Positions 6,878-19,796 of a stretch of DNA of 62,015 nucleotides are shown here, one piece after another. Numbering within the stretch: the first letter of the stretch is position 1; each line of letters begins with the position of its first letter. Under the pieces are notes generated by a model that was not told the DNA's origin, ran no database searches, and saw nothing but the letters and a program-made list of their open reading frames with translations. The DNA is from a virus (taxonomy: Duplodnaviria; Caudoviricetes), in the IMG/VR virus record IMGVR_UViG_3300033076_000935, positions 1-62,015 of that record; one strand, given 5' to 3'. A program made the translations under genes and the position numbers.

Positions 6878-7540
6878 CTACAACAAATTCTGTGTTATAT
6901 TTTCTGGAAGAACTCCAATAGTCTTTATCATGTAATCTGCAAATTTACGATGACTATCCCAAGTCCAATGTCGATCTGATATCTTACCTTTTGTGTACTC
7001 TACTATAGTTTCGTAATTTCCCCATAGTATTTTCGACCACATAAATGCATTCACCTTTTTAAGACGGCAAGCAGTTACTAGAAAGTTCATATGTCTTTCA
7101 TAGTACCTTTGCCATTCATCGGCATAAGGCAACCTTACTTCTACTCCGTAGTCTACCATTGCTTGTTGAGCTCTACGGCTATAAGAATCTTTTATACCTT
7201 TCTTTACTCCTCCATGATCTAAAGTATACGCATGAAAAGATCCAACGGTACCTGTATATGGATTTATTACTGGGAATCTTGTAGAATCACTTGAACCTAT
7301 AATGACTAGATCACCGGGGTGAAAATAATCAAAACAGTCTACAAACTTGTCTATAATCTCTGCGTTACCTATTCCCCCATAGCCGTAGTTGTTTAGAGAC
7401 ATATCGTAATAATCTGCTACATGAGCAGGCCATATTTTATCTCCTTCCTGAGGAGGGTATGCAATAGTGTATTCGTTGCCATGTAGACAACCATCTCCTT
7501 TAGTAAAACTATCCCCAAAAAACCAGGCTGTTCTAGACAT
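6878..7540 (-). CDS. SGNH/GDSL hydrolase-like protein
   Basis: FFGDSFT block I, GxGN block II, C-terminal DxH..SH. Confidence 0.7.
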   Translation of the reverse strand: MSRTAWFFGDSFTKGDGCLHGNEYTIAYPPQEGDKIWPAHVADYYDMSLNNYGYGGIGNAEIIDKFVDCFDYFHPGDLVIIGSSDSTRFPVINPYTGTVGSFHAYTLDHGGVKKGIKDSYSRRAQQAMVDYGVEVRLPYADEWQRYYERHMNFLVTACRLKKVNAFMWSKILWGNYETIVEYTKGKISDRHWTWDSHRKFADYMIKTIGVLPENITQNLL

Positions 7541-8762
7541 TGTCGATTCCTGTTTTTATATCTTTGTAACTAGTTCCTCTTAATTCATCTAACTTCTTAT
7601 TAAAAGCCTTTAACTCTACTTCATCGATACCTCTTGGTGCTTTTATAAATTGAATAAGTTGATCAATCTCTTTTAAGGTCTTAGGAGAGTCTAATTGCTT
7701 AGCGCCTTCTTCTAAGAATTTAATAGCTGCTTCCTTATCTTGAATATTGTTTATAGAAGTGGGTTGAGGGCTCCAGGCATAGTAGAGATCTATACTGTCG
7801 GAAGACTCTACATACTTATTCTCAATCATGAAATTGATAAAATCAAAGATATGATAGATATTATAAATTGTTGTAGTATACTGGAAGTTATATTGAATAC
7901 CTGTTACTCTTTTACCAGGACCTCCTGAAGTATAAGATGGATTAGCTACTGTTTTGATTCTATCTAAATTCTCTAGAAACTTTTTAGTATCGAAATTAGT
8001 TCGTTGATACTCTCCTACAGGTCCTATCCCGTCACAAGAGATAGATACAAATACTTTTGCAAAGTCTTTCCACAGGTTAACTAAATCAACTTCATTATAC
8101 TTGATAGTCATTAAATTAGTATTGTAATGAAGGTGTAGATTCTTTTTAGTTTCTTGTAACTCTTCATCAAAATACTCTCCTACATTCTCGTGTAACCATT
8201 TTAACATTTTAAAATGCTCAGGCATAATTAATGGCTCACCCCCAGCAAAGTAAACACTTCTAATATCTGATAAGTACGGTATAAGGTCTTCTACAATAGT
8301 TTCAGATACTTTTATAACTTTACTATCTTCTACCACTCCTCCATACATCTTCTTAGCATCTTCAAACCAGCTAGAAGAGAAAGTATGGTTACACATTCTA
8401 CACTTTAAATTACAAAGATTAGAGAACCTAATATCTAAATGTTGTATGACTGGCGGTACTTCAAAGTTCTCATCTACTTTAGGCATCGTCCAGTTATTAC
8501 TCCTGTTATACTTAATTCTAGGACTATCCTCTCCTCTCTCTTCTTTCTTATAACAAACATCACATGCTTTGTTCTTAACTCCGCATAGCATATCTTTTCG
8601 AAGATCTTTCATCTGTTCTGAATTCCAGATACCTTCGATAGTATTTCCTTTATACTTCAAGGGCTTGTCATAACTTCCTGCTATACAACAAGGCTTTATT
8701 TCACCATCCGGTTGAGCATACAGATGCACAAAAGGAAGTATACAGAAACTTTCGCTACTCAT
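7533..8762 (-). CDS. Radical SAM protein with N-terminal twitch/SPASM-like Fe-S domain
   Basis: CNLKCRMC (CxxxCxxC), GGEP, N-terminal CILPF...PCC...CDVC; start placed at MSSESFC because the upstream region encodes a separate small ORF. Confidence 0.9.
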   Translation of the reverse strand: MSSESFCILPFVHLYAQPDGEIKPCCIAGSYDKPLKYKGNTIEGIWNSEQMKDLRKDMLCGVKNKACDVCYKKEERGEDSPRIKYNRSNNWTMPKVDENFEVPPVIQHLDIRFSNLCNLKCRMCNHTFSSSWFEDAKKMYGGVVEDSKVIKVSETIVEDLIPYLSDIRSVYFAGGEPLIMPEHFKMLKWLHENVGEYFDEELQETKKNLHLHYNTNLMTIKYNEVDLVNLWKDFAKVFVSISCDGIGPVGEYQRTNFDTKKFLENLDRIKTVANPSYTSGGPGKRVTGIQYNFQYTTTIYNIYHIFDFINFMIENKYVESSDSIDLYYAWSPQPTSINNIQDKEAAIKFLEEGAKQLDSPKTLKEIDQLIQFIKAPRGIDEVELKAFNKKLDELRGTSYKDIKTGIDNV

Positions 8763-8944
8763 ATTATAAGATTTGATGTTTATCGTTTTCGTTTTCTTCT
8801 TTATCATCACCCCAGTTTAGGAAATCATTTCCTTTATAATCTGGATGGTTCTTTTGCATGTAGTCTATACCTTCTACCCATCTCCAAGATATGATAGCAA
8901 CTACTGTAAACATAATTCCAAATACCAATACGTATCCCATTTTG

Positions 8945-10777: not shown

Positions 10778-11329
10778 TTAGATTAGAGATTTGTTAGCAT
10801 CTCCTTGTCTATACTTACGTTTTATATCTACATCTTCTAGAGAAGGATTGGTAATGCCAAGGTATTCGTTTAATCCTTTAAGTTGATCTCTTCTTAAATA
10901 AATACCTTCATAGGTAACTTGATAACCATTCAGATTTAATAATTTAGTTCTAGTCTTTGAATACTGTTCTGTCATTTGATCGCAGTAATTCTGATTTACT
11001 TTAGAAGGGTTATATACATAGTGGCTATGCCATTTTTTACTCTGTACTGCGTGTACTAGACTCTGTGCTTGTTCCTGTGTATTCTCTCTAGTAAGAATTA
11101 TATGTTTATCAAACTTATAGTAGAAATCTAAGAAATGCTTACCTCCTTGTTCATCCATAACCTTAACTACTACATTATCAGATTCCCATATTAAACTCTC
11201 CGGGTATTTGTCGTGAGTTGGATCGATATTGTAAGGTTCAAAGATACCTTCATACTTAAGTGAATTAGCAATATAATATGTTAAAGATGTTGAGCCTGTT
11301 CTAGCTAGAGTGTATATAAGTATTCTCAT
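10778..11329 (-). CDS. Sulfotransferase-like P-loop protein
   Basis: LARTGST PAPS-binding loop, EPY, LTR..QAQS. Confidence 0.65.
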   Translation of the reverse strand: MRILIYTLARTGSTSLTYYIANSLKYEGIFEPYNIDPTHDKYPESLIWESDNVVVKVMDEQGGKHFLDFYYKFDKHIILTRENTQEQAQSLVHAVQSKKWHSHYVYNPSKVNQNYCDQMTEQYSKTRTKLLNLNGYQVTYEGIYLRRDQLKGLNEYLGITNPSLEDVDIKRKYRQGDANKSLI

Positions 11330-11700
11330 AAAGACCTGCCATAATTTTTATAATCTTCAGAGATAAAAGAAGTCTTGTAGTAACTTCCTCTAGGTTGGTT
11401 TAGTTTATGTTCAACAACGTGGTAACTAACTGTTATTTCATCCCCTCTATCAATAGGTCTATTAGCATATAAAAGGTAACCTGTCTCTACTTTAACTAAA
11501 GATGTATTAGGTGTTTCACTGTGGTTACAATATCTACCTAAAAGATCTGTTTCCCATAAGGTACCTGTTAGACGGCTACCATTTCTGCTAGGTGTATTTT
11601 GGATATAAGTTCCTACTAAGTCTTCTGTTTCAAAATAAATGTTTGAAAAGACTCCAGTTCCTTTTACCGGTAATACTATTAATGTAAAGTTAATCTCCAT
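11326..11700 (-). CDS. SET domain methyltransferase
   Basis: GxGVF, RYCNHSETPN, GDEITVSY. Confidence 0.85.
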   Translation of the reverse strand: MEINFTLIVLPVKGTGVFSNIYFETEDLVGTYIQNTPSRNGSRLTGTLWETDLLGRYCNHSETPNTSLVKVETGYLLYANRPIDRGDEITVSYHVVEHKLNQPRGSYYKTSFISEDYKNYGRSL

Positions 11701-13222
11701 GAAGCATCTGTACGTTATCTATCGAGTTGTTTATAACTTCCTGTAAATGAGATCTTAGCTTATCTCTAAATGGTTTTAGCTTATGATCTAAATTTAGGAG
11801 TTTATTTTCTTTTTCTATATTTTCTAAACTAAGTGTCCCGTTACCAACTCCTACAATATACCAGCTGTATATATCAAAGACTTCTCCTCCTGTAAGTTCA
11901 TGTAGGTCTAAATTTTTAGGAGTTCTTCTTTCCCACAATTTTAACAGCTTATCTAAACCTGGTGGAACATTTACTTTATCGCTATAATTTTTCCAAAATG
12001 GAGTATCTTTTCTTGTAGTGTAAAAATGGTAATATAAGAAGCACATTACCTCGTGGTTAAGACCGGCTATTGCTTTGTTATATTGATCCAGATCTTCTTG
12101 ATTATTTTCAGACATTAGAGAAGGATCTAAATTAACAAGTTGCATTAGAGCTATCATTAGTGAAGTAGCTTCTAACGGTTCGACAAATCCTGAGCTTAAT
12201 CCTATAGCCATGCAATTCTTTACCCAAACGTCTTTATATCTACCTGCGTTAAATTGGAACACTTTACCTAATCTTTCAATCGGGTATCCTAGAACTTCTT
12301 CAATTTCGTCATAAGCTTGTTCTGGTGTTATATAATTACTATCAAAAGAGTAGCCCATACCCCAACGGTGTTTAACCGGTATTTGCCACATCCATCCGTA
12401 CTTCATAGCTACACAATTTGTCTCCGGTCTTAAAACTTTTTCCTTATGTGGAACAAAAAACGGGACAGCTGCGTCTGTAGTCAGGTATTTTTTATAAGAA
12501 ATCCATTCTGTTTTATAAAAGTTACCTACAATAAGTCTATTAAAACCACTACAGTCGAAAATAAAATCTAAAGGAAGAGTCTGTCCATTCTTTAAGCTAA
12601 TAGCTGTAATTGTTCCATCTTCTTTAGAGTGTATCTCTTTTAGTTTAGAATCAATTCGTTTAATACCTCTACCTTCTCCTATTTTTGCTAAATATACAGC
12701 TGCTTTTCTAGCATTAAAATGGAACGAATATCCAGATGAACTCTGTACTTTGTTATCGATAGAGTAGAATGGGCTTTTCTGTTCGTTAACCAAAGCGTTA
12801 ACAGGTATTACCTCTTCTAAGTTCTCTTTATTAGCAACAGCATTTAGTATATAATAGGCTGAGTTTGTGTTAGGAATTTTACTTGCATGATTAAATCCTA
12901 ATGAGTGTATAGCTTTAAAATCTAAAGTAGTCCCAGGAGGAGCTAAAAAAGGGTGTAGGTAACTTGTACCGTCTCCTTTCCAGTTTGTAAACCTGATACC
13001 TGTCTTAAAAGTAGCATGTGCTTCTCTTTTAAATTCTCCTAAAGGTATCTGCAAAGTCTGTAAGAATAAAGGTAACATAGGTACCGATCCTTCTCCAGCT
13101 CCTAATATTCCAATCTCTGAGCTTTCTACTAACGTAACTTCAGCATCATCAAAAAGATGTTTTGCATATAATGCTGTTAACCATCCAGCAGTTCCTCCTC
13201 CTAGTATAACTATATTTTTCAT
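11690..13222 (-). CDS. Tryptophan halogenase-like flavin-dependent enzyme
   Basis: GGGTAGW, GAGEGS, FK, DCSGF, WMWQIP (WxWxIP), GFVEPLEAT. Confidence 0.88.
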   Translation of the reverse strand: MKNIVILGGGTAGWLTALYAKHLFDDAEVTLVESSEIGILGAGEGSVPMLPLFLQTLQIPLGEFKREAHATFKTGIRFTNWKGDGTSYLHPFLAPPGTTLDFKAIHSLGFNHASKIPNTNSAYYILNAVANKENLEEVIPVNALVNEQKSPFYSIDNKVQSSSGYSFHFNARKAAVYLAKIGEGRGIKRIDSKLKEIHSKEDGTITAISLKNGQTLPLDFIFDCSGFNRLIVGNFYKTEWISYKKYLTTDAAVPFFVPHKEKVLRPETNCVAMKYGWMWQIPVKHRWGMGYSFDSNYITPEQAYDEIEEVLGYPIERLGKVFQFNAGRYKDVWVKNCMAIGLSSGFVEPLEATSLMIALMQLVNLDPSLMSENNQEDLDQYNKAIAGLNHEVMCFLYYHFYTTRKDTPFWKNYSDKVNVPPGLDKLLKLWERRTPKNLDLHELTGGEVFDIYSWYIVGVGNGTLSLENIEKENKLLNLDHKLKPFRDKLRSHLQEVINNSIDNVQMLHGD

Positions 13223-13698
13223 ATCAATGTCTCTTGTTTTTTAAGATACGAACTTTCTTCTAAGAATGCAACTAAAGTATACCTTATACCGTCTTCTACT
13301 AGATTAACTCTATGTGGAATATCTGGTGGAAATATTAAAGCCGTATTTGGAATAGGCTTTATCATCTTTATGTTGTAGTCTATATATTCAAACTCTCCTC
13401 CTTTAAATTCATCGTTAAGAAAGCAGACTACGTTTTCAATAAGAAACTGATCATGAGTATGAAAATTAGTAGCTACTTTAAAGTTTGCATCAATACGTTG
13501 AATTCTTAGTACATCTAATTTTCCTGTAAGTCCATGTTTTAAAAAAGCATCTTGTACTCTACTACGAAGAAGTCCCTCTACATTAACTCCTCTAAAATTG
13601 TATATACCATCTTGTACCTTTTTGTACTTACTTCTATACGCATACTTACAGAGGTCATTATATAACTCTTCGTTGAAAAACTGTTTACAAATCTTCAT
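13219..13698 (-). CDS. 2OG-Fe(II) oxygenase
   Basis: HxD (HTHD), LNDEFKGGE, HRV...GIRY. Confidence 0.8.
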   Translation of the reverse strand: MKICKQFFNEELYNDLCKYAYRSKYKKVQDGIYNFRGVNVEGLLRSRVQDAFLKHGLTGKLDVLRIQRIDANFKVATNFHTHDQFLIENVVCFLNDEFKGGEFEYIDYNIKMIKPIPNTALIFPPDIPHRVNLVEDGIRYTLVAFLEESSYLKKQETLI

Positions 13699-14402
13699 TA
13701 GATTAACGTATTTGCGATCTTAAAAGGAGGTTCAATTAACTTGTAATAAAAATTTTCTAAATGACTGTCGATTACTAATGCTGTATCGATAGTTTTAGTA
13801 TGATTTGTCATGATAAACTCGAATGGTTTTCCTGTTACTTTTCTTACGTAGTCCTCTAACACCGATAGCTCTTTCATATTAAAATACAGAATGCTTGTAT
13901 CATTTTCATGCCACCTAGAAGGACCAGTCATCACTGAAGTGAATATCATATAGGTGTTCTTATTGTAAGGAACTCCTCCTGGTATTAATTTTTTAAAGAA
14001 GTTAGCACAGTTATTAATATCTTGAAGATTCGAACTAAATCCAATCTCACTTTGCCAAGCGTTTATAAAAGCATTTCTATCTACTTTTGCTAGAGCTTCT
14101 GAAGTTTTAGGACTATATTCTGAAATGTATTTGATAACATACTTCCAGGCAGATAAAAATCTTTCAAGAGGATCTCTTTCTATAGCAATAACCGGGTAGT
14201 CATACCCAAAGTACTCTCTTAGTTTTGAGATTCTTTCATGAGCATGACGACGAGGTTCTAAGCCAAGGTCGGCTTGTCTTTGAGCTAATATATTGTCACT
14301 AGGATACTTAATAGAAAGTCCTGCTAAAAAGCAGGAACGTTCAAATGCTACTGTAGCTGTTCTAGGGATCTTTAGAAACAAAAACTTATTATCAACTAAC
14401 AT
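13698..14402 (-). CDS. Sulfotransferase family protein
   Basis: KIPRTAT 5'-PSB loop and RDPLERFLSAW 3'-PB motif. Confidence 0.75.
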   Translation of the reverse strand: MLVDNKFLFLKIPRTATVAFERSCFLAGLSIKYPSDNILAQRQADLGLEPRRHAHERISKLREYFGYDYPVIAIERDPLERFLSAWKYVIKYISEYSPKTSEALAKVDRNAFINAWQSEIGFSSNLQDINNCANFFKKLIPGGVPYNKNTYMIFTSVMTGPSRWHENDTSILYFNMKELSVLEDYVRKVTGKPFEFIMTNHTKTIDTALVIDSHLENFYYKLIEPPFKIANTLI

Positions 14403-14418
14403 ATAACCTTTTTACATT

Positions 14419-14532
14419 TTATGATAAGTGTTTATCTCTAATTAGACTAAATACTGATTCTATTACATTCTTTACTTTTGTGTCTGTAGCCGAAGAGGTC
14501 GGTACTGTGACAGTGTCTACTATGTTTGCCAT
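14419..14532 (-). CDS. Small Ser/Thr-rich peptide (37 aa), not in ORF track
   Basis: MANIVDTVTVPTSSATDTKVKNVIESVFSLIRDKHLS; starts immediately after the stop of the 641-aa gene and fills the gap to the next gene. Confidence 0.6.
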   Translation of the reverse strand: MANIVDTVTVPTSSATDTKVKNVIESVFSLIRDKHLS

Positions 14533-14533
14533 A

Positions 14534-16459
14534 TTACGCTAATTTTTTTGCAAAGTTGTGAACTAAGATACCTTCTGCAATATAGTTGTGGGTATCTTCT
14601 ACTGAAATATTATATACAATTCCTTTAAAATCTTCAAATTCTAAAGTTTCTACCATTACCCAATCTCCTAATAAGTTAATAAAGTATTCTCCTGTTGTTA
14701 GTTTCTCTACAACTAAGTCGCCGTGGAAGTCTTTATCTACTTCTGGATTAGCAGCAGCCCATCTAATGTTACCTTCAAAGTCCTTAATTGCAAATGGGTG
14801 ACCTACTGTTGCTTTTGTTTTGATTCCGTTAATAATTACTAACTTGTCATCGTATTCTGTCTTCCAAAGACCTTTTACAGTCTTAGTAACAACGTCATTT
14901 TTTTGTAAATCGAAAGATTGAACTACATCTCCGATTTGGATATCTTTAATCTCTTTTTGACCATCTGCTGTAGTCACCATTGCTTCTCCTATAAAGCAAG
15001 CTGATTGACAAGTCCAGCAAGAGTTGTAACAACTATACCATCCGCAATTATATCCATTACACCAACATGGGTTGTGCTGTACTAATGTAATGTTTGTTGC
15101 TTCATCTAATACAGATAAGAAAATATCTTGCTCTTCTACATCCACTTCGTAAATTACCTTAGTATCGTAAACTGGTTCTAAAGAGGTAATTTCCTTCTTA
15201 ACTAAACTATTTGTAGCAACATCTAATAATACTACTTTATCTCCTAATTCAACCTGTCCTAGAGATTTGAATCGAGTTAAGTTACTACCGCTTACTTCTG
15301 TGTAGAAAGTTGATCTTGTAGAATCATCCCAAGTTGTTCCGTCTTCTAATGTAATATTTAAGTAAACTGTTTCTAAACTAGAGCTTTGGAATCCTACAAC
15401 TGTTGCAGTATTCACTACTAAAGAGCTTTGCATGTCTGCAAAAGAAGAAGAGAAGCCAAATACATCTACATAAGAACCTGTAGGGAAGTTACTAAATTGT
15501 GCTGATTTAACAACTGTTCCTTGTTCTACTTGGTCAATTGTAATATACTCACCTGTAGCAGTAACTAACTTTGTATCTTGATCAACGTGGTATATGTTCT
15601 TTTGTTCGTCTGTAGAAAGTTTAGAAATCCACTTAACTCTAGATTTATTAGTTAACGCTGTGGTTCCTTCTTGTAACTCATCTGGCCAAATATCTAATGC
15701 ATAAGGAGAAGTCTGATGGTAAGAACCTAAGTGTAATGTGTCTAGATTACCTCCGTAAACTAAATCAATACTTCTAATAATAGAGTACCTTCCTTCTTTA
15801 ATATTATTTTCAGAATTAATAAACTCTTGAATAAAGTTAGCACCCGTCGTAGATCCTTTTAATGCATCTAGTTGAGATTGTGTTGTAATTTTATGTGCTT
15901 GTGGATATACCTTGGCATCGTATTGCGGGTATCTAGACTTAACAACTAAATTTGGAGTCTTACTTGCATCAAATTCTGTTAAAGTTGTTAGATTATATTC
16001 CGGAGTATCTATAAATGTTGGGATAGCGTAAGACTGGCTTTGAATTAAATCCTGAAGGTTTAATTTATCTGCGCAATAAGTCTCATCTACTAAAGCTGTT
16101 CCATCGTAGGCTTGTCTTAAGATAAACTTAGTAGGAGTATCTTCGATGTAAGGTACTGTAGCTGCGTAAGTGTTTACTTGGTATGGGGTATATGTAATAC
16201 CCATTGCTTCACAGATAGTCTGTAATTTAGTACCTAAAGAGATGTTTACTCTAAATTTAGGATCTGCTACTACTTGTTGATCGTTGAAAATATAGACTAC
16301 TTCCTCTATTGAATTAGCTTGGAAAAGACTTTCTAATCCAGTAAAATCTAAGTGAGGTATCATACTCTGGTAAATACCAGTGCTTGTGTTTAGCTCTACT
16401 AACCTTGCATTACCGTTATCATCAAGTAAAAAATCACTTCCTATTAAAACAGCTTTCAT
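14534..16459 (-). CDS. Polyprotein: circularly permuted ATP-grasp-like domain + Hint domain + Cys/Trp/Tyr-rich peptide + Hint domain
   Basis: GSDFLLD..G..RLVELNT, VVKSR, FIQEFI; Hint1 aa~291-463 ending YEVDV..QHN; peptide aa464-487; Hint2 aa488-635 CFIGEA..VYNISVEDTHNY..VHN. Confidence 0.8.
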   Translation of the reverse strand: MKAVLIGSDFLLDDNGNARLVELNTSTGIYQSMIPHLDFTGLESLFQANSIEEVVYIFNDQQVVADPKFRVNISLGTKLQTICEAMGITYTPYQVNTYAATVPYIEDTPTKFILRQAYDGTALVDETYCADKLNLQDLIQSQSYAIPTFIDTPEYNLTTLTEFDASKTPNLVVKSRYPQYDAKVYPQAHKITTQSQLDALKGSTTGANFIQEFINSENNIKEGRYSIIRSIDLVYGGNLDTLHLGSYHQTSPYALDIWPDELQEGTTALTNKSRVKWISKLSTDEQKNIYHVDQDTKLVTATGEYITIDQVEQGTVVKSAQFSNFPTGSYVDVFGFSSSFADMQSSLVVNTATVVGFQSSSLETVYLNITLEDGTTWDDSTRSTFYTEVSGSNLTRFKSLGQVELGDKVVLLDVATNSLVKKEITSLEPVYDTKVIYEVDVEEQDIFLSVLDEATNITLVQHNPCWCNGYNCGWYSCYNSCWTCQSACFIGEAMVTTADGQKEIKDIQIGDVVQSFDLQKNDVVTKTVKGLWKTEYDDKLVIINGIKTKATVGHPFAIKDFEGNIRWAAANPEVDKDFHGDLVVEKLTTGEYFINLLGDWVMVETLEFEDFKGIVYNISVEDTHNYIAEGILVHNFAKKLA

Positions 16460-16483
16460 ATTTTGAGTTTAAATTAATTCGTT

Positions 16484-16491
16484 TATAAATA
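16484..16491 (-). promoter_or_regulatory. Class B motif TATTTATA (putative late promoter)
   Basis: Recurs shortly upstream of several genes, including the lysis cassette. Confidence 0.5.
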
Positions 16492-16520
16492 AATATCTAG
16501 CTAGAAGACTTCCGCTAGAC

Positions 16521-16973
16521 TTATATAATGCTTTTCGTATACTTAATCAAGTTGCTTCTAAAGTAACTAATTAAAAGGTATTGAGTACCTTCTAAAATAG
16601 GTTTAAAATCTACATCTATTCCGGAATCGAAATAAATTCCTGTATTCGGAAACGGCTTCACAGTTGCTTCTTTATATTGAAGCTCTCCTCCTGTATAGTT
16701 ATCGTTTATGAAGTACACAAGAATCGAGTAGTCTGGATTGTTAAACTGTGTGTAAGTTGTTCTATCTCCTTTAGTTCTTTTACTAAAGTACATTACATCA
16801 CATTGGCTTTTTAAGCCCATTCCTATTAAAAAGTTTTCTACATCTATAGCAAACTTGTAAGGTGGGTATGTAAATCTATAATAGTTTCCGTCAGAACTTT
16901 CAACAGCATACTTCCCTTCGTAAATCATAGACTCACAAAACTCTTTTGGGAATAAGCTATCGTATATTATCAT
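16521..16973 (-). CDS. Degenerate 2OG-Fe(II) oxygenase-like protein
   Basis: INDNYTGGEL and PILEGTQY motifs, but no His ligands. Confidence 0.6.
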   Translation of the reverse strand: MIIYDSLFPKEFCESMIYEGKYAVESSDGNYYRFTYPPYKFAIDVENFLIGMGLKSQCDVMYFSKRTKGDRTTYTQFNNPDYSILVYFINDNYTGGELQYKEATVKPFPNTGIYFDSGIDVDFKPILEGTQYLLISYFRSNLIKYTKSII

Positions 16974-17569
16974 TTTTTCAACTCTGTTATATTAAAGCTA
17001 ATATTAGAACAAATAGCTATTCTGGTTCCTTCTGAATTTGGCGATAAGTTTGGTTTATGTTCTACATCTCCTTTAAAAAATATAAAATCTCCTTCTTCTG
17101 GTTTTGTTGCATAAACTTTGCCGTCTTTATCTTTAAGTAAGAGCGTACCTTCGTTTCCTTGTAAGTCATCTGGAACTTGTACATAGAAGCAGTAAGTCCA
17201 GTCTGTAAGGATAGGAGCATTTACTCTAGTGTCTGGGTAGTTAATAGCAGCAGTATGTACATGAAAAGCATTTTGAGGATCTTTAGAGTTCTTATCTTGA
17301 ATATAACTCCAGGTCTTACCCGCAAATGCCTGTCCTTTCAAGCTCTCAATCCCAGAGAGTTTCATAGCAACTGTCATACCGTAGTTGATAATATAATCAA
17401 TCTCCTCACTATGTACTTTAATTTCTGTTGTATTGAAATCTGTACTACCTAGTAACCAGTTGTTCTGATTTACTCTATAGATAATATCTTCTTGACTATA
17501 CTGCCAATCAAACTTAGTCTTATAAATTGAAAGGGTGTCGCTAATTTTATACTCTCTTACTTCTCTCAT
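16970..17569 (-). CDS. Putative 2OG-Fe(II) oxygenase
   Basis: HVH, FYVQVP..GTL, PEEGDFIFF..H.P...R. Confidence 0.7.
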   Translation of the reverse strand: MREVREYKISDTLSIYKTKFDWQYSQEDIIYRVNQNNWLLGSTDFNTTEIKVHSEEIDYIINYGMTVAMKLSGIESLKGQAFAGKTWSYIQDKNSKDPQNAFHVHTAAINYPDTRVNAPILTDWTYCFYVQVPDDLQGNEGTLLLKDKDGKVYATKPEEGDFIFFKGDVEHKPNLSPNSEGTRIAICSNISFNITELKK

Positions 17570-18102
17570 ATAAGTGTTTTAGCTTGCTTTTGTTTAAATT
17601 CGATAAAGACTGTAAATGTAAGTCTACCATCTTTTATGGAAGTACCAAACGGCTCTTGAACTGCATGGTTAATATTAGCGGGGTAACATACAAAACGGTT
17701 AAAGACATTTTCAACCTCTCCTACTTGAATGTAGTTATCATCGTAGAAAGAAGTTCCAGAATCAGGTACTTGGTGTGGAGCGAGATATATAACTCCTGCG
17801 TAATCTTTTTTACGGTCTTTATGTATGCGGTTTTTATTATAACCTTTTTCTTTTGTAGTATCTTCTAACGTGTAATGAAAGTAGCAATCATAGTTTGCTG
17901 TAGCAAATTTAGGATCTCTTTTGCTTAATTCAGATTTTACAAGTTCAGTTACCTTTAAGGTAAGTTCGTTTCGTTCTAAACATCTATGCCCTTTCCAACC
18001 TTGTTCTTCAAAGGAAGGTGTATAATTCAACTCTAAAGCTTGATCTCTTATAGCCCATACATCTTCTAAAAAATTATCTATCTGAATTAAACCTTGTATC
18101 AT
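17566..18102 (-). CDS. Putative 2OG-Fe(II) oxygenase (DUF6445-like)
   Basis: IDNF, IHKD, AGVIYL, SGTSFY, NRF..Y...H...RL. Confidence 0.75.
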   Translation of the reverse strand: MIQGLIQIDNFLEDVWAIRDQALELNYTPSFEEQGWKGHRCLERNELTLKVTELVKSELSKRDPKFATANYDCYFHYTLEDTTKEKGYNKNRIHKDRKKDYAGVIYLAPHQVPDSGTSFYDDNYIQVGEVENVFNRFVCYPANINHAVQEPFGTSIKDGRLTFTVFIEFKQKQAKTLI

Positions 18103-18386
18103 ATTAAAGTTTTATCTTGCTTAATCTTTGAGCTTTCACTTAGGTACTTATCTTCTACCGGTTTCCATTTATGTAAAGGACATGCATCGTACAAACGACT
18201 GAAGATTTTACCTTCTAGCAAACAGCTACACTCTCCGCAATACTCAGACCATTTATGGTTATTGAATAGAGTTTCTCTTTTAGAACATTGCTCACATATC
18301 TCATAACGTTCTTTAGCCAAATTCTTTTGGCTTTCTTTTGGATTAACTTTAGTGATCCAAGCAGAGATAATCTCTTTCATATTCAT
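18099..18386 (-). CDS. Small Cys-rich protein (DUF6171-like)
   Basis: RYEICEQC...CGECSC...CPLHKW. Confidence 0.65.
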   Translation of the reverse strand: MNMKEIISAWITKVNPKESQKNLAKERYEICEQCSKRETLFNNHKWSEYCGECSCLLEGKIFSRLYDACPLHKWKPVEDKYLSESSKIKQDKTLI

Positions 18387-18387
18387 C

Positions 18388-18723
18388 TTATGCCAATAAA
18401 TGTCTCAATATAATCGTCAACGATATACAGATCCAGATTGTATTAAAGAGAATTAGAGTAGGTAAGCTTTTTCTCATACTAGCCCATATCAATAAAGAAG
18501 ACGTAGCTAATGTAAGAACGTGAAAGTACCATAACTCAATACCAAATATAAGTCCTGGTATGATAATGATAGCCTTAGCTAACCATGCAGTTAGTTCAAT
18601 TGTATTATAATCTGTCCAGTATTCTTTAGATAAGTACATTTGGTACCTATCGAAGATATTCTTCCAGCCTACTAGTGTATATAGAAATGCGATTGCTACT
18701 ATAAAGGATATTAGGTATATCAT
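18388..18723 (-). CDS. Membrane protein
   Basis: Three to four hydrophobic helices. Confidence 0.65.
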   Translation of the reverse strand: MIYLISFIVAIAFLYTLVGWKNIFDRYQMYLSKEYWTDYNTIELTAWLAKAIIIIPGLIFGIELWYFHVLTLATSSLLIWASMRKSLPTLILFNTIWICISLTIILRHLLA

Positions 18724-18938
18724 ATATTATCTTTTTTTAAACCATACTTAATCCATCTATACCATATACGTTCGTGTATGTAGTACTGAATGGGTTTGTA
18801 AATTAATTCTGCTACGCCAAAGGCTGCTCCTACTTTTACAGAACCGCTGATAAGCCACATTAACAAGAAACCAATTACGGTACTTATTATCCTGTAGCTT
18901 ATGGTTTTAGCTATGTGACGTTTCCTTTGTACTATCAT
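18720..18938 (-). CDS. DUF2061-like small membrane protein
   Basis: KTISYR...YYIHERIW; this family is typically found next to APS kinase. Confidence 0.75.
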   Translation of the reverse strand: MIVQRKRHIAKTISYRIISTVIGFLLMWLISGSVKVGAAFGVAELIYKPIQYYIHERIWYRWIKYGLKKDNI

Positions 18939-19336
18939 AACTTACCCTCTTCTTTCATTTGATTACGGATACCAGTTGCTGATATGTCTCTAATATCGTC
19001 TGGTGGTACGTGTTCGATAACATCATATCCAACTCCTCTACCTATATTGATAGATTCAATATCTGGAATGATTATAATCTTCAACTTACCTGTATGAATT
19101 AAATCTAGCAATTCGTTTGTAAGATTTCTCAAAACCTCTTGAGGAGTCCATGGATTCCTTTCATCTGGTTCTACATCTCTAATTGCTAATAAAACTCTCT
19201 TACCTTCTTTTAACCTCTGGTCAATTAACCAACGATGTCCGGCATGCCAAGGTTGCCATCTTCCAATAAACATCGAATACTTAACGTCGTTAGAGGAAGA
19301 TTGAAATGCTGCTGTTGCTAAATATTTTGTACTCAT
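18935..19336 (-). CDS. HIGH-superfamily nucleotidyltransferase (cytidylyltransferase-like)
   Basis: GRWQPWHAGH, ISATGIR. Confidence 0.8.
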   Translation of the reverse strand: MSTKYLATAAFQSSSNDVKYSMFIGRWQPWHAGHRWLIDQRLKEGKRVLLAIRDVEPDERNPWTPQEVLRNLTNELLDLIHTGKLKIIIIPDIESINIGRGVGYDVIEHVPPDDIRDISATGIRNQMKEEGKL

Positions 19337-19352
19337 ATAGTATTATACGAAT

Positions 19353-19796
19353 TTATTTGACAACTTCCAACTCTTTTCTTATTTTCATATAGGAATCAAA
19401 AGGAGTTTCGTTTGTTGTATCAATATCGATAAAGTTCTCTACAGGAGGTTCATAGTTTGCTACATGGTACTGAGTACGTCCTCTATCTTCAAAGGCATGT
19501 ACGTAGAATTCTACTATACCGTCTCCTAGCTTCTCTTTGAAACTTTCTCTCTGGTCTCTATAGGGTGATACTAACGATACAAAAACATTAAAGCCTTTCT
19601 TATGTAGGAAGAGAGCCATATTCTGAGCTAGCTCTATATTCTTTCTTCTTCCGGCTTCTGAATAGTCTTTATTATCAAATAATTCTCTTATATCATCTCC
19701 GTCGATATTAATCGCTTTAGGAAATAAATGAACAGCTAGCATATAAGCTAATGTTGTCTTACCCGCTCCTGGTTGTCCAGTGAACCAATATACCAT
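19353..19796 (-). CDS. cysC: Adenylylsulfate (APS) kinase
   Basis: WFTGQPGAGKTT, DGDDIR, R..NI, VSPY, YEPP. Confidence 0.85.
   Translation of the reverse strand: MVYWFTGQPGAGKTTLAYMLAVHLFPKAINIDGDDIRELFDNKDYSEAGRRKNIELAQNMALFLHKKGFNVFVSLVSPYRDQRESFKEKLGDGIVEFYVHAFEDRGRTQYHVANYEPPVENFIDIDTTNETPFDSYMKIRKELEVVK

What the first reader, a model, noticed from the sequence alone, without database searches (positions are those of the whole stretch)
10778..19796. Phage-encoded tailoring cluster matched to the excised peptide (halogenase, oxygenases, sulfotransferases, SET, PAPS supply)
Seen: contiguous co-oriented genes around the Hint precursor encode a Trp-halogenase-like enzyme, four 2OG-Fe(II) oxygenase-like proteins, two sulfotransferases, a SET methyltransferase, APS kinase, a HIGH nucleotidyltransferase and membrane proteins. 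Inference: the chemistries fit the core residues (Trp halogenation, Tyr O-sulfation, hydroxylation, Cys crosslinks), suggesting a viral RiPP-like biosynthetic cluster. The precursor gene follows the putative late motif, so the product may be virion-associated or released at lysis.
Basis: partly seen in the sequence, partly recalled or inferred. Interest (0 to 1): 0.85.

Follow-up and report, generated by a model that had tools for sequence, protein, structure and literature searches.

The report
Phage self-excising modified-peptide gene cluster
A large Flavobacterium-type phage carries a widely conserved gene set that seems to cut a small cysteine-rich peptide out of a bigger enzyme-like protein and decorate it with halogen, sulfate and hydroxyl groups; I found no published description of such a viral peptide pathway.

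Summary
The genes are there as described: 14 co-oriented ORFs plus a missed 37-aa ORF. The "Hint precursor" (14534-16459, 641 aa) is not a simple leader plus core. It has four parts: a circularly permuted ATP-grasp ligase domain, a first Hint/intein-fold domain ending in a near-invariant His-Asn, a 23-residue Cys/Trp/Tyr-rich core, and a second BIL-type Hint.

Relatives form a superfamily found almost only in viral sequence (368 clusters at 50% identity). Only the ATP-grasp catalytic residues and the terminal His-Asn stay conserved. The tail after His-Asn is hypervariable and Cys-rich, with an even Cys count in 78 of 82.

In 24 well-flanked viral loci the halogenase, an oxygenase, a sulfotransferase and a small Cys protein accompany it in 23-24, and the PAPS-supply genes in 17-19.

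The tailoring enzymes share a C-terminal K-[T/S]-L-I tag. The precursor and the PAPS genes lack it.

Best reading (0.55): a new phage RiPP-like system with a self-excising core. Cleavage, the modifications and the product's role are inferred.

The parts
19353..19796 (-). APS (adenylyl-sulfate) kinase, 147 aa; PAPS supply
   Evidence: Pfam APS_kinase 6e-18, 65.8 bits. NCBIfam apsK 9.3e-19, below its equivalog cut-off. Present in 17 of 24 well-flanked loci.
18935..19336 (-). Small HxGH nucleotidyltransferase, 133 aa, NMN-adenylyltransferase-like. Candidate sulfate adenylyltransferase substitute (inferred).
   Evidence: Pfam CTP_transf_like 0.0026. A profile of 16 homologues hits NadM-type NMNAT at 9.2e-6. 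Always next to the APS kinase and DUF2061 genes. Present in 19 of 24 loci.
18720..18938 (-). DUF2061 small membrane protein, 72 aa
   Evidence: Pfam DUF2061 9.5e-17. Present in 18 of 24 loci.
18388..18723 (-). 111-aa hydrophobic protein, no family
   Evidence: No Pfam or NCBIfam hit. Present in 7 of 24 loci.
18099..18386 (-). 'Cys95': 95-aa protein with six invariant Cys, ending in the tag KTLI. In most loci it sits directly upstream of the precursor gene.
   Evidence: Alignment of 30 homologues. Present in 74 of 79 loci, and in 23 of 24 well-flanked ones. AF2 pLDDT 81, no significant structural match. The ESM Atlas neighbours listed are viral-only clusters for the top three, 78% viral for a fourth.
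17566..18102 (-). 2OG-Fe(II) oxygenase-like protein (DUF6445), 178 aa, ends in the tag KTLI
   Evidence: Pfam DUF6445 2.4e-9. His-x-Asp and a distal His are visible in the translation. Present in 3 of 24 loci.
16970..17569 (-). 199-aa double-stranded beta-helix oxygenase-like protein with invariant H-x-H...H...R
   Evidence: Pfam 2OG-FeII_Oxy_3/5 only 0.024-0.028. NCBIfam FlmC-type 2OG oxygenase 0.0014. Invariant H103, H105, H171, R183 in 31 sequences. Present in 24 of 24 loci. Homologues carry the tag in 49 of 52; the window copy does not (it ends ELKK).
16521..16973 (-). 150-aa degenerate paralogue of the 159-aa oxygenase, metal ligands lost, ends in the tag KSII
   Evidence: BLASTP 27% identity, 3e-11 to 13219-13698. 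The two His-bearing motifs are replaced. No Pfam hit.
15605..16459 (-). Precursor protein residues 1-285: circularly permuted ATP-grasp carboxylate-amine ligase domain
   Evidence: VIA-align: YgiC 7uka Z 9.6 (198 aligned), GspS 2io7 Z 8.9, glutathione-synthetase-like 5oeu Z 8.7, Cp1B 9cjn Z 7.5. Foldseek: 1m0w 9.3e-6. Pfam: residues 5-29 match ATPgrasp_ST positions 234-258 of 278, and residues 169-219 match RimK positions 42-87. D9, E22, N24, R115, K174 and R229 are kept in 119-121 of 122 sequences at a median 26% identity.
15071..15604 (-). Precursor residues 286-463: first Hint/intein-fold domain. No N-terminal nucleophile. Ends in near-invariant His462-Asn463.
   Evidence: VIA-align: KlbA intein 2jnq Z 14.4 (157 aligned, model 285-471); RadA intein 2lqm Z 13.6 (143 aligned, model 290-465 against chain 1-174). 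The top PDB profile hit is the bacterial intein-like domain 2lwy, E 0.087. His in 114 of 122 and Asn in 118 of 122.
15002..15070 (-). Core peptide, residues 464-486 (23 aa): 6 Cys, 4 Trp, 3 Tyr, no Lys, Asp or Glu
   Evidence: Translation. AF2 pLDDT below 50. 52 of 58 unique cores have six Cys.
14534..15001 (-). Precursor residues 487-641 plus stop: second, BIL-type Hint domain. Starts with Cys487. Its terminal His-Asn is followed by Phe, so it has no splicing nucleophile.
   Evidence: Pfam Intein_splicing 1.7e-11, PT-HINT 2.2e-8. VIA-align: BIL2 6tmm Z 19.6, BIL 2lwy Z 17.4, hedgehog 1at0 Z 17.1. NCBIfam intein_Cterm 33 bits against a cut-off of 15.6.
14419..14532 (-).
   Evidence: Translation. 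An ORF with the same ending lies directly downstream in 52 of 77 testable loci, 37 distinct sequences.
13698..14402 (-). Sulfotransferase-like protein, 234 aa (Sulfotransfer_2-like), ends in the tag NTLI
   Evidence: Pfam 0.00093, 19.8 bits, below the cut-off of 22. A profile of 31 puts heparan sulfate 2-O-sulfotransferase on top at 0.0098. Present in 23 of 24 loci. Tag in 62 of 62 homologues.
13219..13698 (-). 2OG-Fe(II) oxygenase, 159 aa, ends in the tag ETLI
   Evidence: Pfam 2OG-FeII_Oxy_3 8.1e-6, 27.2 bits against 27. Present in 15 of 24 loci.
11690..13222 (-). Flavin-dependent tryptophan-halogenase family enzyme, 510 aa
   Evidence: Pfam 1.4e-103. PDB: LooH 1e-65 and Trp 5-, 6- and 7-halogenases around 1e-60. 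The dinucleotide-binding Gly motif, the Lys of the F-K-x-x-I-R-F-x-N-W stretch, the W-x-W-x-I-P motif and the E-P-L-E motif all align. Present in 24 of 24 loci.
11326..11700 (-). SET-domain methyltransferase, 124 aa; accessory
   Evidence: Pfam SET 3.1e-8. Present in only 5 of 24 loci. The core has no Lys.
10778..11329 (-). Second sulfotransferase-like protein, 183 aa (Stf0/NodH-like), ends in the tag KSLI
   Evidence: Pfam Stf0 0.035. A profile of 30 puts NodH on top at 0.0075. Present in 18 of 24 loci.

Best explanation
This is a phage-borne, RiPP-like peptide maturation module built around a self-processing precursor protein.

Shown:
- The 641-aa protein consists of four parts in order: a circularly permuted ATP-grasp ligase domain, a Hint-fold domain ending in His-Asn, a 23-residue Cys/Trp/Tyr-rich core, and a BIL-type Hint starting with Cys.
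- The module of halogenase, oxygenases, sulfotransferases, small Cys protein and PAPS-supply genes is conserved around distant homologues of this protein in viral contigs.
- The tailoring enzymes share a C-terminal K-[T/S]-L-I tag.

Inferred:
- Asn463 of the first Hint cyclises and cuts the bond before Pro464.
- Cys487 of the second Hint makes a thioester and frees the core's C-terminus. In most relatives the core simply runs to the stop codon.
- While still tethered, or after release, the core is halogenated on Trp, hydroxylated, and sulfated using phage-made PAPS.
- The even number of Cys then pair, probably after lysis.
- The ATP-grasp domain acts on the core. In this phage's core the only carboxyl group is the C-terminal one, so the most likely reaction is an amide bond at the C-terminus (ligation or head-to-tail closure).
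- The shared enzyme tag is a docking signal that brings the tailoring enzymes to the precursor.

The product's role (toxin, signal or metal binder) is unknown.
For: Domain anatomy:
- AF2 model pLDDT 84.1.
- VIA-align gives the C-terminal Hint Z 19.6, the middle Hint Z 14.4 and 13.6 spanning residues 285-471, and the ATP-grasp domain Z 9.6 to 8.2 against YgiC, GspS and glutathione-synthetase-type ligases.
- Foldseek agrees.
- The Pfam fragments show the permutation.

Conservation:
- In 122 superfamily sequences with a median 26% identity to the window protein, the columns kept at 97% or more (beyond the start Met) are D9, E22, N24, T25, R115, D125, P169, K174, R229 and N463; H462 is kept at 93%. 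D9, E22, N24, R115, K174 and R229 are ATP-grasp metal and phosphate ligands.
- What follows His-Asn is hypervariable.

Cargo:
- Of 121 representatives, 82 have a Cys-rich tail running to the stop (median 48 aa), and 78 of those 82 have an even Cys count.
- In 79 viral loci, 58 unique cores: 52 with six Cys, 57 with Trp, 58 with Tyr.

The core's C-terminus is set in three ways (one search counts, of 121 representatives): a plain stop (82), a following Hint after a Cys-rich core (3), or an S74-like self-cleaving motif (3). One of the last, P0181, passes Pfam Peptidase_S74 at 25.3 bits against a cut-off of 22.

Linkage:
- In 24 non-redundant loci with at least 7.5 kb upstream and 7 kb downstream: halogenase 24, 199-aa oxygenase 24, Cys95 23, 234-aa sulfotransferase 23, nucleotidyltransferase 19, DUF2061 18, second sulfotransferase 18, APS kinase 17.
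- Unrelated flanking genes are shared by only 2-8 of 79 loci.

Tag (unique ORFs):
- Present in 62 of 62 234-aa sulfotransferase homologues, 49 of 53 Cys95, 49 of 52 199-aa oxygenase homologues, 23 of 35 159-aa oxygenase homologues, 18 of 42 second sulfotransferase homologues, 12 of 47 halogenases (17 more end KELI).
- Absent from 0 of 60 precursors, 0 of 31 nucleotidyltransferases and 0 of 30 DUF2061 proteins; 1 of 23 APS kinases has it.
- 109 further tagged ORFs include more oxygenases, radical-SAM-like proteins and methyltransferases; 108 of them lie on the precursor's strand.
- Codons differ between the six tagged genes of the window.
- 0 of 6 oxygenase or halogenase proteins next to the HTVC008M halogenase carry the tag.

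Natural variant: locus L006 has a 7-residue core without Cys or Trp, and no halogenase or sulfotransferase nearby.

Distribution: 1 weak relative in one genome for each of 185,579 prokaryote species.
Against: - No cleavage, modification or product has been observed. Everything after the anatomy is inference.
- The first Hint is recognised only by fold. Pfam finds nothing, the PDB profile E-value is 0.087, and hhalign against the second Hint aligns 40 columns at 66% probability.
- 5 of 121 relatives have tails under 10 residues, and 13 have a Hint directly after His-Asn. So the ATP-grasp-Hint part must also work without a Cys-rich cargo.
- The nearest solved relatives of the halogenase act on free tryptophan.
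- The nearest solved relatives of the sulfotransferases act on carbohydrates, at insignificant E-values.
- Related halogenase and dioxygenase sets occur in cyanophage and pelagiphage genomes without this precursor (PMC2938197, passages read).
- The SET enzyme has no Lys to act on in the core.
- No exporter or dedicated oxidase is evident.
- Disulfides would not form in the cytoplasm.
- The core is modelled with pLDDT below 50.
Confidence: 0.55

Rival explanations
1. The Cys-rich tail is never released. It is a metal-binding or disulfide knob on a multi-domain ATP-grasp enzyme. The neighbouring halogenase, oxygenases and sulfotransferases modify something else: a glycan, a virion protein or a host protein. 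The terminal His-Asn is structural.
For: - The sulfotransferase profiles are nearest to carbohydrate sulfotransferases.
- Glycosyltransferases and a carbamoyltransferase exist elsewhere in the window.
- Some relatives have no Cys-rich tail.
- Six conserved Cys could bind metal.
Against: - His-Asn at the end of a Hint fold has no known role except Asn cyclisation (established intein chemistry, recalled). It is kept in 114 and 118 of 122 sequences while its surroundings vary.
- Three different ways of setting the tail's C-terminus argue for a defined free peptide.
- The glycosyltransferases are over 17 kb away and not part of the conserved module.
- The tag links sulfotransferases, oxygenases and the Cys protein to one pathway that always includes this protein.
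Confidence: 0.15
2. The cluster makes a small non-ribosomal product. The ATP-grasp domain ligates modified free amino acids (halogenated Trp, hydroxylated residues) into a dipeptide-like metabolite, as proposed for cyanophage dioxygenase and halogenase arrays. The Hint domains and the tail are regulatory or selfish.
For: - The structural neighbours of the ATP-grasp domain are small-molecule and peptide amide ligases: YgiC, GspS and glutathione synthetase, and Cp1B of E-64 biosynthesis (PMC12568646, listing and abstract start only).
- Iyer et al. 2010 predicted peptide-derived metabolites for phage dioxygenase plus halogenase arrays (PMC2938197, passages).
- Iyer et al. [quoted passage not shown]
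- The halogenase is nearest to free-Trp enzymes.
Against: - It does not explain the hypervariable, even-Cys tails fused behind an invariant cleavage motif.
- It does not explain the Trp/Tyr richness of nearly all cores.
- It does not explain the loss of halogenase and sulfotransferases where the core lacks Trp and Cys (L006; n = 1).
Confidence: 0.12
3. Polymorphic-toxin logic. The conserved ATP-grasp-Hint part is a delivery and processing chassis, and the variable Cys-rich tail is a small secreted toxin or effector against competing bacteria, phages or grazers. It is released at lysis, and the tailoring only stabilises it. This is a statement about the role; it is compatible with the best explanation's chemistry.
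For: - PT-HINT is one of the Pfam families that match the second Hint (34.9 bits against 27.7).
- The tail is hypervariable behind a conserved autoprotease.
- The even Cys counts are typical of extracellular disulfide-rich peptides.
- A secreted NlpC/P60 hydrolase gene lies nearby.
Against: - There is no trafficking domain, no immunity gene and no known toxin fold.
- The tails are far smaller than known polymorphic toxin domains.
- Nothing bears on a target.
Confidence: 0.25

Closest known systems
RaxX / RaxST / RaxPQ of Xanthomonas (sulfated RiPP with its own PAPS supply; recalled, not searched)
   Same: A ribosomal peptide with Tyr, a dedicated sulfotransferase, and co-encoded PAPS synthesis.
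   Different: - RaxX is a short leader-core peptide cut by a peptidase-transporter. Here the core hangs on an ATP-grasp-Hint protein.
- The sulfotransferases here are not recognisably TPST-like. They resemble the Sulfotransfer_2 and Stf0/NodH types, weakly.
- ATP sulfurylase is replaced by a 133-aa NMNAT-like protein.
Pretoxin-HINT modules of polymorphic toxins (Pfam PF07591; concept recalled, Zhang et al. 2012 appears in the reference list seen)
   Same: A Hint domain placed directly before a hypervariable C-terminal cargo, which it is thought to release.
   Different: - The cargo here is a 20-50 residue Cys-rich peptide, not a toxin domain.
- The Hint that precedes it lacks an N-terminal nucleophile and would work by Asn cyclisation only.
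- It is fused to an ATP-grasp ligase, is found almost only in viral sequence, and is surrounded by tailoring enzymes.
BIL-Ubl-BIL arrangement of the Tetrahymena BUBL locus, and engineered SICLOPPS (PDB titles 6tmm/6y75 and 5ol6; mechanisms recalled)
   Same: A short polypeptide flanked upstream by a Hint ending in His-Asn and downstream by a Hint starting with Cys. The best structural match of the second Hint is the BUBL BIL2 domain (Z 19.6).
   Different: - The flanked element is a Cys-rich 23-mer, not a ubiquitin-like domain.
- There are two complete Hint domains, not two halves of one intein.
- The +1 residue is Pro and +2 is Cys.
- Neither cyclisation nor conjugation is shown.
Borosin-type precursors such as OphMA (enzyme fused to its own C-terminal core peptide; recalled)
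   Same: A catalytic domain and the core peptide it probably acts on are one polypeptide, with the core at the C-terminus.
   Different: - The enzyme is an ATP-grasp ligase, not a methyltransferase.
- Release here would be autocatalytic through a Hint domain.
- Many further tailoring enzymes act in trans.
Cyanophage dioxygenase / Trp-halogenase arrays (Syn9 gp49-gp54 region) and bacterial 2OG-oxygenase + sulfotransferase + PAPS-synthetase operons (Iyer et al. 2010, PMC2938197, passages read)
   Same: Multiple unrelated dioxygenases with Trp-halogenase-type enzymes in phage genomes, predicted to modify peptides. Sulfotransferase plus PAPS genes are linked to dioxygenases.
   Different: - Those arrays have no identified substrate gene.
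- None of the passages I read mentions an ATP-grasp-Hint protein, a Cys-rich tail or a shared enzyme tag.
- No homologue of the window protein's N-terminal part turned up in 50,697 deposited phage records.
Graspetides / microviridins (ATP-grasp RiPPs)
   Same: An ATP-grasp ligase in a ribosomal-peptide pathway.
   Different: - Graspetide ligases join Asp/Glu side chains to Ser/Thr/Lys. The window's core has no Asp, Glu or Lys.
- The fold neighbours are GspS and glutathione-synthetase-type ligases, not microviridin ligases.
Cone-snail conopeptides (bromotryptophan, sulfotyrosine, hydroxyproline on disulfide-rich peptides; recalled; PMC4071585 seen as a listing only)
   Same: The same predicted combination of modifications on a small peptide with six Cys.
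   Different: An animal secretory pathway with unrelated enzymes. The resemblance is chemical only and is not shown here.

Membership tests
RiPP biosynthetic cluster (generic) | Gene-encoded precursor with a distinct core region | tested here: met
   A 23-residue Cys/Trp/Tyr-rich segment lies between two Hint domains. It is hypervariable among relatives.
RiPP biosynthetic cluster (generic) | Tailoring enzymes co-encoded with the precursor | tested here: met
   23-24 of 24 well-flanked loci hold the halogenase, an oxygenase, a sulfotransferase and Cys95.
RiPP biosynthetic cluster (generic) | Core is post-translationally modified and released from the rest of the precursor | not testable with these tools
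   Needs mass spectrometry of the expressed proteins.
Hint / intein superfamily (second domain, residues 487-641) | Hint fold | tested here: met
   VIA Z 19.6 (6tmm), 17.4 (2lwy), 17.1 (1at0). Pfam Intein_splicing 44.6 bits against 35.8.
Hint / intein superfamily (second domain, residues 487-641) | N-terminal Cys/Ser nucleophile and terminal His-Asn | tested here: met
   Cys487 is the first residue and the domain ends V-H-N.
Splicing intein (second domain) | Cys/Ser/Thr at +1 after the terminal Asn, and a C-extein to ligate | tested here: not met
   +1 is Phe, and only six residues follow. Relatives have M, F, V or A at +1. So it is BIL-like and cleaves only.
Hint / intein superfamily (first domain, residues 286-463) | Hint fold | tested here: met
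   VIA Z 14.4 (2jnq, 157 aligned, rmsd 3.3) and Z 13.6 (2lqm, 143 aligned, model 290-465 against chain 1-174). Sequence support is weak.
Hint / intein superfamily (first domain, residues 286-463) | N-terminal nucleophile | tested here: not met
   The position aligned to intein residue 1 is within Y-H-[V/T]-D and is not conserved.
Hint / intein superfamily (first domain, residues 286-463) | Terminal His-Asn for Asn cyclisation | tested here: met
   His in 114 of 122 and Asn in 118 of 122. Invariant in 48 of 48 and 34 of 34 closer sequences.
ATP-grasp superfamily | Fold | tested here: met
   VIA Z 9.6 to 8.0 for YgiC, GspS and glutathione synthetases over residues 1-282. RimK, LysX and TTLL score Z about 6 over residues 50-283 only. 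This is moderate; unrelated models typically reach a best Z of 7 to 8 (note).
ATP-grasp superfamily | Mg/ATP ligands (Asp ... Glu-x-Asn triad, phosphate-binding Lys/Arg) | tested here: met
   D9-x12-E22-x-N24, R115, K174 and R229 are kept in 119-121 of 122. Assigning them to these roles rests on recalled ATP-grasp knowledge.
ATP-grasp superfamily | Pfam family above the gathering score | tested here: not met
   RimK 13.7 bits against 21; ATPgrasp_ST 11.3 bits against 31.4.
Flavin-dependent tryptophan halogenase | Family profile and catalytic motifs | tested here: met
   Pfam 347.6 bits against 21. The Lys, the W-x-W-x-I-P motif and the E-P-L-E motif align with solved halogenases. The motif roles are recalled.
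Flavin-dependent tryptophan halogenase | Acts on peptidyl rather than free Trp | not testable with these tools
   Most homologues in the viral loci are about 410 aa, against 510 aa here. No inference on substrate is possible.
PAPS-dependent sulfotransferase (both candidates) | Family profile above cut-off | tested here: inconclusive
   Pfam 19.8 and 14 bits against 22. The top PDB profile hits are sulfotransferases at 0.0098 and 0.0075. Invariant P-R...R...S and R-x-G-S...R...S columns fit the PAPS-binding motifs (recalled).
APS kinase | Family profile | tested here: met
   Pfam 65.8 bits against 21.1. The NCBIfam equivalog cut-off is not reached (67.8 against 138.7).
ATP sulfurylase (for the 133-aa nucleotidyltransferase) | Homology to known sulfate adenylyltransferases | tested here: not met
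   The best matches are NMN adenylyltransferases. The sulfurylase role is inferred from gene linkage only.
SET lysine methyltransferase acting on the core | A Lys in the substrate | tested here: not met
   The SET domain itself is supported (34.4 bits against 22.4), but the window's core has no Lys.
Graspetide | Asp/Glu and Ser/Thr/Lys side chains in the core for omega-ester or amide links | tested here: not met
   No Asp, Glu or Lys in the window's core. Asp 1.2% and Glu 1.1% over 58 cores.

The most novel reading that the evidence does not exclude
This would be a new class of ribosomal natural product found almost only in viruses. It would have three defining traits:
- The 'leader' is an active ATP-grasp ligase fused to a Hint autoprotease.
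- The disulfide-rich core is excised without any protease. In this phage it is flanked by two Hint domains, the topology used artificially for intein-driven backbone cyclisation.
- A whole set of unrelated tailoring enzymes (halogenase, oxygenases, sulfotransferases, radical-SAM, methyltransferases) is recruited to the precursor through a shared four-residue C-terminal tag.

The product would be a halogenated, sulfated, hydroxylated, possibly cyclic mini-peptide made by lytic phages of aquatic bacteria.
Probability: 0.35. Interest if true: 0.95.

Novelty: new variant of a known kind. Interest (0 to 1): 0.85.

Why it matters
If the reading holds, large phages of aquatic bacteria make their own heavily modified peptides. 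Few natural-product pathways have been assigned to lytic viruses.

It would do so with a precursor design not reported in the searched literature: an enzyme plus an autoprotease plus a core. It would also use a simple peptide tag that marks pathway enzymes.

Possible gains:
- a new source of halogenated and sulfated disulfide-rich peptides;
- a protease-free release (and possibly cyclisation) device for peptide engineering;
- a four-residue handle for finding pathway members in metagenomes;
- a concrete substrate candidate for the long-unexplained dioxygenase and halogenase arrays of marine phages.

Tried and rejected
- Megablast of the whole cluster against 50,697 phage records found no match.
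- tblastn of the 641-aa protein against the same records hit 13 records, all through the C-terminal Hint only.
- Pfam on 34 middle-domain sequences gave nothing usable.
- hhalign of the middle domain against the second Hint aligned only 40 columns at 66% probability. The Hint assignment of the middle domain therefore rests on fold.
- Complex prediction of precursor residues 1-490 with the 95-aa Cys protein gave no verdict (score 0.01, mark 0.32). It says nothing either way.
- The 95-aa Cys protein found nothing significant in a PDB profile search. Foldseek had no match at E <= 0.001. The best VIA-align Z was 4.7. Most ESM Atlas neighbours are unnamed viral clusters.
- The PDB profile search with the 199-aa oxygenase-like family returned only designed repeat proteins, which are spurious.
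- Sigma-70-like promoter sites numbered 44 against 39.2 +/- 6.2 in shuffles, so there is no signal. Terminator-like sites numbered 11 against 3.9 +/- 2.0, and none sits clearly between cluster genes.
- For the 'late motif', the 20-mer upstream of the precursor gene occurs once in the window. A heptamer, TATTTAT, is in 6 of 23 upstream regions. That is too weak to call.
- DUF2061 in the literature: six papers, all with a single passing mention.
- Nine literature searches found no description of an ATP-grasp-Hint precursor, of this cluster, or of the tag. Subscription journals are not covered and supplements were not opened.
- I considered the extra Hint to be a selfish intein and rejected that. 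It sits at the C-terminus with a six-residue remainder and Phe at +1, so it cannot splice.

Full report
OBSERVATION. Every ORF between 8945 and 22023 is on the minus strand, and the genes of the finding abut or overlap. Pfam confirms the following:
- a Trp-halogenase family enzyme (1.4e-103);
- an APS kinase (6e-18);
- a SET domain (3.1e-8);
- a DUF2061 membrane protein (9.5e-17);
- two 2OG-type oxygenases above or at threshold (DUF6445 at 2.4e-9; 2OG-FeII_Oxy_3 at 8.1e-6);
- Hint/intein families at residues 485-635 of the 641-aa protein.

Four calls are weaker.
- The 199-aa protein is oxygenase-like only at E 0.024, but it has invariant H-x-H...H...R columns.
- The 150-aa protein is a paralogue of the 159-aa oxygenase with both His-bearing motifs replaced.
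- The two sulfotransferases are below the Pfam cut-offs. Profiles of 31 and 30 homologues still put sulfotransferases on top in the PDB, at 0.0098 and 0.0075.
- The HxGH nucleotidyltransferase is NMN-adenylyltransferase-like.

The halogenase keeps the residues that align with the catalytic Lys and Glu and with the W-x-W-x-I-P motif of solved enzymes.

THE PRECURSOR PROTEIN. A search of 5.8 billion proteins found 448 relatives among 8000 scored candidates. Many are about 495 aa, lack the Hint, and end just after the Cys-rich motif.

An AF2 model built on 48 sequences has pLDDT 84.1, and the Cys-rich stretch 466-486 is below 50. Foldseek and an all-against-48,161-chains VIA-align search resolve three folded domains.
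- Residues 1-282 resemble carboxylate-amine ligases of the YgiC, glutathionylspermidine-synthetase and eukaryotic glutathione-synthetase kind (Z 9.6 to 8.0). Classical ATP-grasp enzymes (RimK, LysX, TTLL) align only from residue 50 on.
- Residues 285-471 are a second Hint/intein fold (KlbA intein Z 14.4, 157 aligned; RadA intein Z 13.6, model 290-465 against chain 1-174).
- Residues 485-636 match the BIL2 domain of the Tetrahymena BUBL locus (Z 19.6), a bacterial intein-like domain (Z 17.4) and the hedgehog autoprocessing domain (Z 17.1).

Pfam fragments show the permutation of the ATP-grasp domain. Residues 5-29 match positions 234-258 of a 278-position ATP-grasp profile, while residues 169-219 match positions 42-87 of RimK.

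The first Hint has no conserved N-terminal nucleophile but ends in His462-Asn463. The second Hint begins with Cys487, and its own His-Asn is followed by Phe and five more residues, so it cannot splice. The 23-residue core (6 Cys, 4 Trp, 3 Tyr; no Lys, Asp or Glu) therefore sits between a Hint that can only cut at its C-terminus and a Hint that can cut at its N-terminus.

THE SUPERFAMILY. A profile of the ATP-grasp plus first Hint was run against 1.84 billion representatives. It found 368 clusters at E <= 1e-3 and 143 at E <= 1e-30.

I aligned the 121 hits of at least 440 aa among the best 150, plus the window protein. Their median identity to the window protein is 26%. The columns kept at 97% or more, beyond the start Met, are D9, E22, N24, T25, R115, D125, P169, K174, R229 and N463; H462 is kept at 93% and a few others (D107, A122, Y128, L239) at 92-93%. 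D9, E22, N24, R115, K174 and R229 have the spacing and positions of ATP-grasp metal and phosphate ligands (role recalled). His is kept in 114 of 122 and Asn in 118 of 122.

What follows His-Asn in the 121 representatives:
- 82 have a Cys-rich tail running to the stop (median 48 aa), and the Cys count is even in 78 of those 82;
- 13 have another Hint after 0-9 residues;
- 3 have a Cys-rich core followed by a Hint;
- 3 have a Cys-rich tail followed by an S74-like self-cleaving motif (one passes Pfam Peptidase_S74 at 25.3 bits against 22);
- 5 have tails under 10 residues;
- 9 have no His-Asn at the aligned column;
- 6 are of other kinds.

This pattern is an invariant autoprocessing junction, a hypervariable paired-Cys cargo, and three ways of setting its C-terminus. 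It is the main reason to think the tail is a released peptide.

The family is almost confined to viral sequence. A scan of one genome for each of 185,579 prokaryote species found one weak relative, on a 5-kb contig of a metagenome bin. All source names seen are 'hypothetical protein'.

THE CLUSTER IS A CONSERVED MODULE. A scan of IMG/VR gave 180 confirmed relatives, of which 79 loci were kept. Of the 79:
- 8 have the second Hint;
- 70 end 26-34 residues after His-Asn, with a shared Cys/Trp-rich pattern;
- 1 runs off its contig.

tblastn with the window's proteins found the following numbers of loci out of 79:
- Cys95 in 74;
- the 234-aa sulfotransferase in 72;
- the 199-aa oxygenase in 68;
- the halogenase in 60;
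- the second sulfotransferase and DUF2061 in 46 each;
- the nucleotidyltransferase in 43;
- the APS kinase in 31.

Genes outside the cluster (ThyX, NlpC/P60, DUF932 and others) were found in only 2-8 of the 79. Many loci are truncated. Among 24 non-redundant loci with at least 7.5 kb upstream and 7 kb downstream the counts are:
- 24, 24, 23 and 23 for halogenase, 199-aa oxygenase, Cys95 and 234-aa sulfotransferase;
- 19, 18 and 17 for the three PAPS-linked genes;
- 18 for the second sulfotransferase;
- 15 for the 159-aa oxygenase;
- 7 for the 111-aa membrane protein;
- 5 for SET;
- 3 each for DUF6445 and the degenerate oxygenase.

All 538 hits are on the precursor's strand. The usual gene order is APS kinase, nucleotidyltransferase, DUF2061, halogenase, oxygenase, sulfotransferase, Cys95, precursor, and the second sulfotransferase further downstream.

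Contigs range up to 333 kb. The window's own phage is a relative of Flavobacterium phage vB_FspM_immuto (DNA polymerase 75% identical). The deposited immuto genomes showed no hit to the precursor's N-terminal part or to the halogenase.

One natural variant, L006, has a 7-residue core without Cys or Trp between the two Hints. It keeps only a Cys95-like gene and two oxygenases nearby, with no halogenase or sulfotransferase. That is suggestive, but n = 1.

A SHARED ENZYME TAG. Six proteins of the window's cluster end in [K/N/E]-[T/S]-[L/I]-I. They use different codons and have different downstream contexts. Only one of the roughly 90 other ORFs in the window fits a loose version of the pattern.

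Counts across the loci, unique ORFs:

| Family | With tag / total |
|---|---|
| 234-aa sulfotransferase | 62 / 62 |
| Cys95 | 49 / 53 |
| 199-aa oxygenase | 49 / 52 |
| 159-aa oxygenase | 23 / 35 |
| second sulfotransferase | 18 / 42 |
| halogenase | 12 / 47 (17 more end KELI) |
| precursor | 0 / 60 |
| nucleotidyltransferase | 0 / 31 |
| DUF2061 | 0 / 30 |
| APS kinase | 1 / 23 |

Among 736 otherwise unassigned ORFs, 109 carry the tag, and 108 of them lie on the precursor's strand. They comprise 77 further oxygenase-like proteins, a 415-aa family, eight radical-SAM-like proteins, methyltransferases and others.

The oxygenases and halogenase of Pelagibacter phage HTVC008M, which lacks the precursor, carry no tag (0 of 6).

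The tag has the form of a class I PDZ ligand (recalled), but no PDZ domain was found. I read it as a docking signal. The precursor's ATP-grasp domain belongs to a group of enzymes that bind C-terminal carboxylates, so it is my candidate receptor, but this is a guess. The single complex prediction gave no verdict.

MECHANISM PROPOSED. The anatomy, the conservation and the linkage are shown. The rest is inferred:
- Asn463 cyclises and frees the core's N-terminus.
- Cys487 forms a thioester and frees its C-terminus. In most relatives the stop codon does this.
- The halogenase acts on Trp, the oxygenases hydroxylate, and the sulfotransferases use PAPS made by the APS kinase, possibly with the small nucleotidyltransferase standing in for ATP sulfurylase.
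- The Cys pair after lysis.
- The window's core has no side-chain carboxylate or amine. If the ATP-grasp domain acts on the core, only its C-terminal carboxylate is available, so an amide at the C-terminus (including head-to-tail closure) is the simplest chemistry.

POINTS AGAINST.
- No product has been seen.
- The first Hint is recognised by fold only.
- Cargo-less relatives exist.
- The nearest solved relatives of the halogenase act on free Trp, and those of the sulfotransferases act on carbohydrates.
- SET has no Lys in the core.
- No exporter is evident.

COMPARISON WITH WHAT IS KNOWN. Iyer et al. 2010 (PMC2938197, passages read) described cyanophage arrays of dioxygenases with Trp halogenases. 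They also described bacterial dioxygenase, sulfotransferase and PAPS-synthetase operons, and predicted peptide modification, without a substrate gene. Iyer et al. 2021 (PMC7824862, passages) described a different cyanophage cluster with carbamoyltransferases, a halogenase and oxygenases. The window has a carbamoyltransferase and glycosyltransferases 17-40 kb away, outside this module.

The closest concepts are listed here; their mechanisms are recalled and not tested:
- sulfated RiPPs with their own PAPS supply (RaxX);
- enzyme-core fusion precursors (borosins);
- pretoxin-Hint release of variable C-terminal cargo;
- the BIL-Ubl-BIL and SICLOPPS topology.

It is not a graspetide, because the core has no Asp, Glu or Lys. 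The second Hint is not a splicing intein. Nine literature searches found no description of this precursor, cluster or tag. Subscription journals and supplements were not covered.

VERDICT. It is wrong or unsupported on the nature of the precursor, on SET, on one 'oxygenase', and on the late-motif and virion idea.
- Confidence in the proposed mechanism: 0.55.
- Novelty: a new variant of a known kind (ribosomal peptide pathways), with an unprecedented precursor design and enzyme tag.
- Interest: 0.85.

Noticed in passing
window 14419-14532 (-): A conserved 37-aa ORF starts inside the stop region of the precursor gene and ends K-H-L-S. An ORF with the same ending follows the precursor gene in 52 of 77 testable viral loci (37 distinct sequences). 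It has no Cys, Trp or Tyr, and its function is unknown.
   Followed up: partly
window 10778-18386 and loci L001-L079: The tailoring enzymes of the module share a C-terminal tag K/N-[T/S]-[L/I]-[I/L]. It also marks radical-SAM-like, methyltransferase and further oxygenase genes in related loci. It could serve as a search handle for pathway members.
   Followed up: yes
window 16521-16973 (-): The 150-aa 'oxygenase' is a paralogue of the 159-aa oxygenase that has lost both metal-binding His motifs but keeps the C-terminal tag. It may be a non-catalytic binder.
   Followed up: partly
proteins P0212, P0230, P0234, P0235, P0238, P0241, P0249, P0258 (superfamily representatives): Some relatives carry two extra Hint domains in tandem after the first His-Asn, separated by only 0-7 residues, and have no Cys-rich cargo. 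What these release, if anything, is unclear.
   Followed up: no
locus L006 3178-5094: A variant precursor with a 7-residue core lacking Cys and Trp between its two Hint domains. Only a Cys95-like gene and two tagged oxygenases are nearby, with no halogenase or sulfotransferase.
   Followed up: partly
window 36748-39469 and 59741-61399 (-): Two glycosyltransferase-like genes and a Nol-type carbamoyltransferase lie here. They recall the cyanophage carbamoyltransferase, halogenase and oxygenase cluster discussed in PMC7824862. They are separate from the module studied here.
   Followed up: no
window 45106-46728 (-) and 7533-8810 (-): A phage-encoded GroEL-type chaperonin (PHROG 5.1e-160) and a 425-aa radical-SAM-like protein (PHROG 8.8e-21). 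The latter lies just downstream of the cluster but has no tag.
   Followed up: no
loci L001 19916-20125, L002 19985-20194, L004 18914-19123, L010 19303-19512: A second, shorter paralogue of the 95-aa Cys protein (about 40% identity) lies roughly 8-10 kb downstream of the precursor gene in several close relatives.
   Followed up: no
window, upstream regions of minus-strand genes: The heptamer TATTTAT is in 6 of 23 intergenic upstream regions (13 copies in the whole window), including the one before the precursor gene. This is too weak to call a promoter element.
   Followed up: partly
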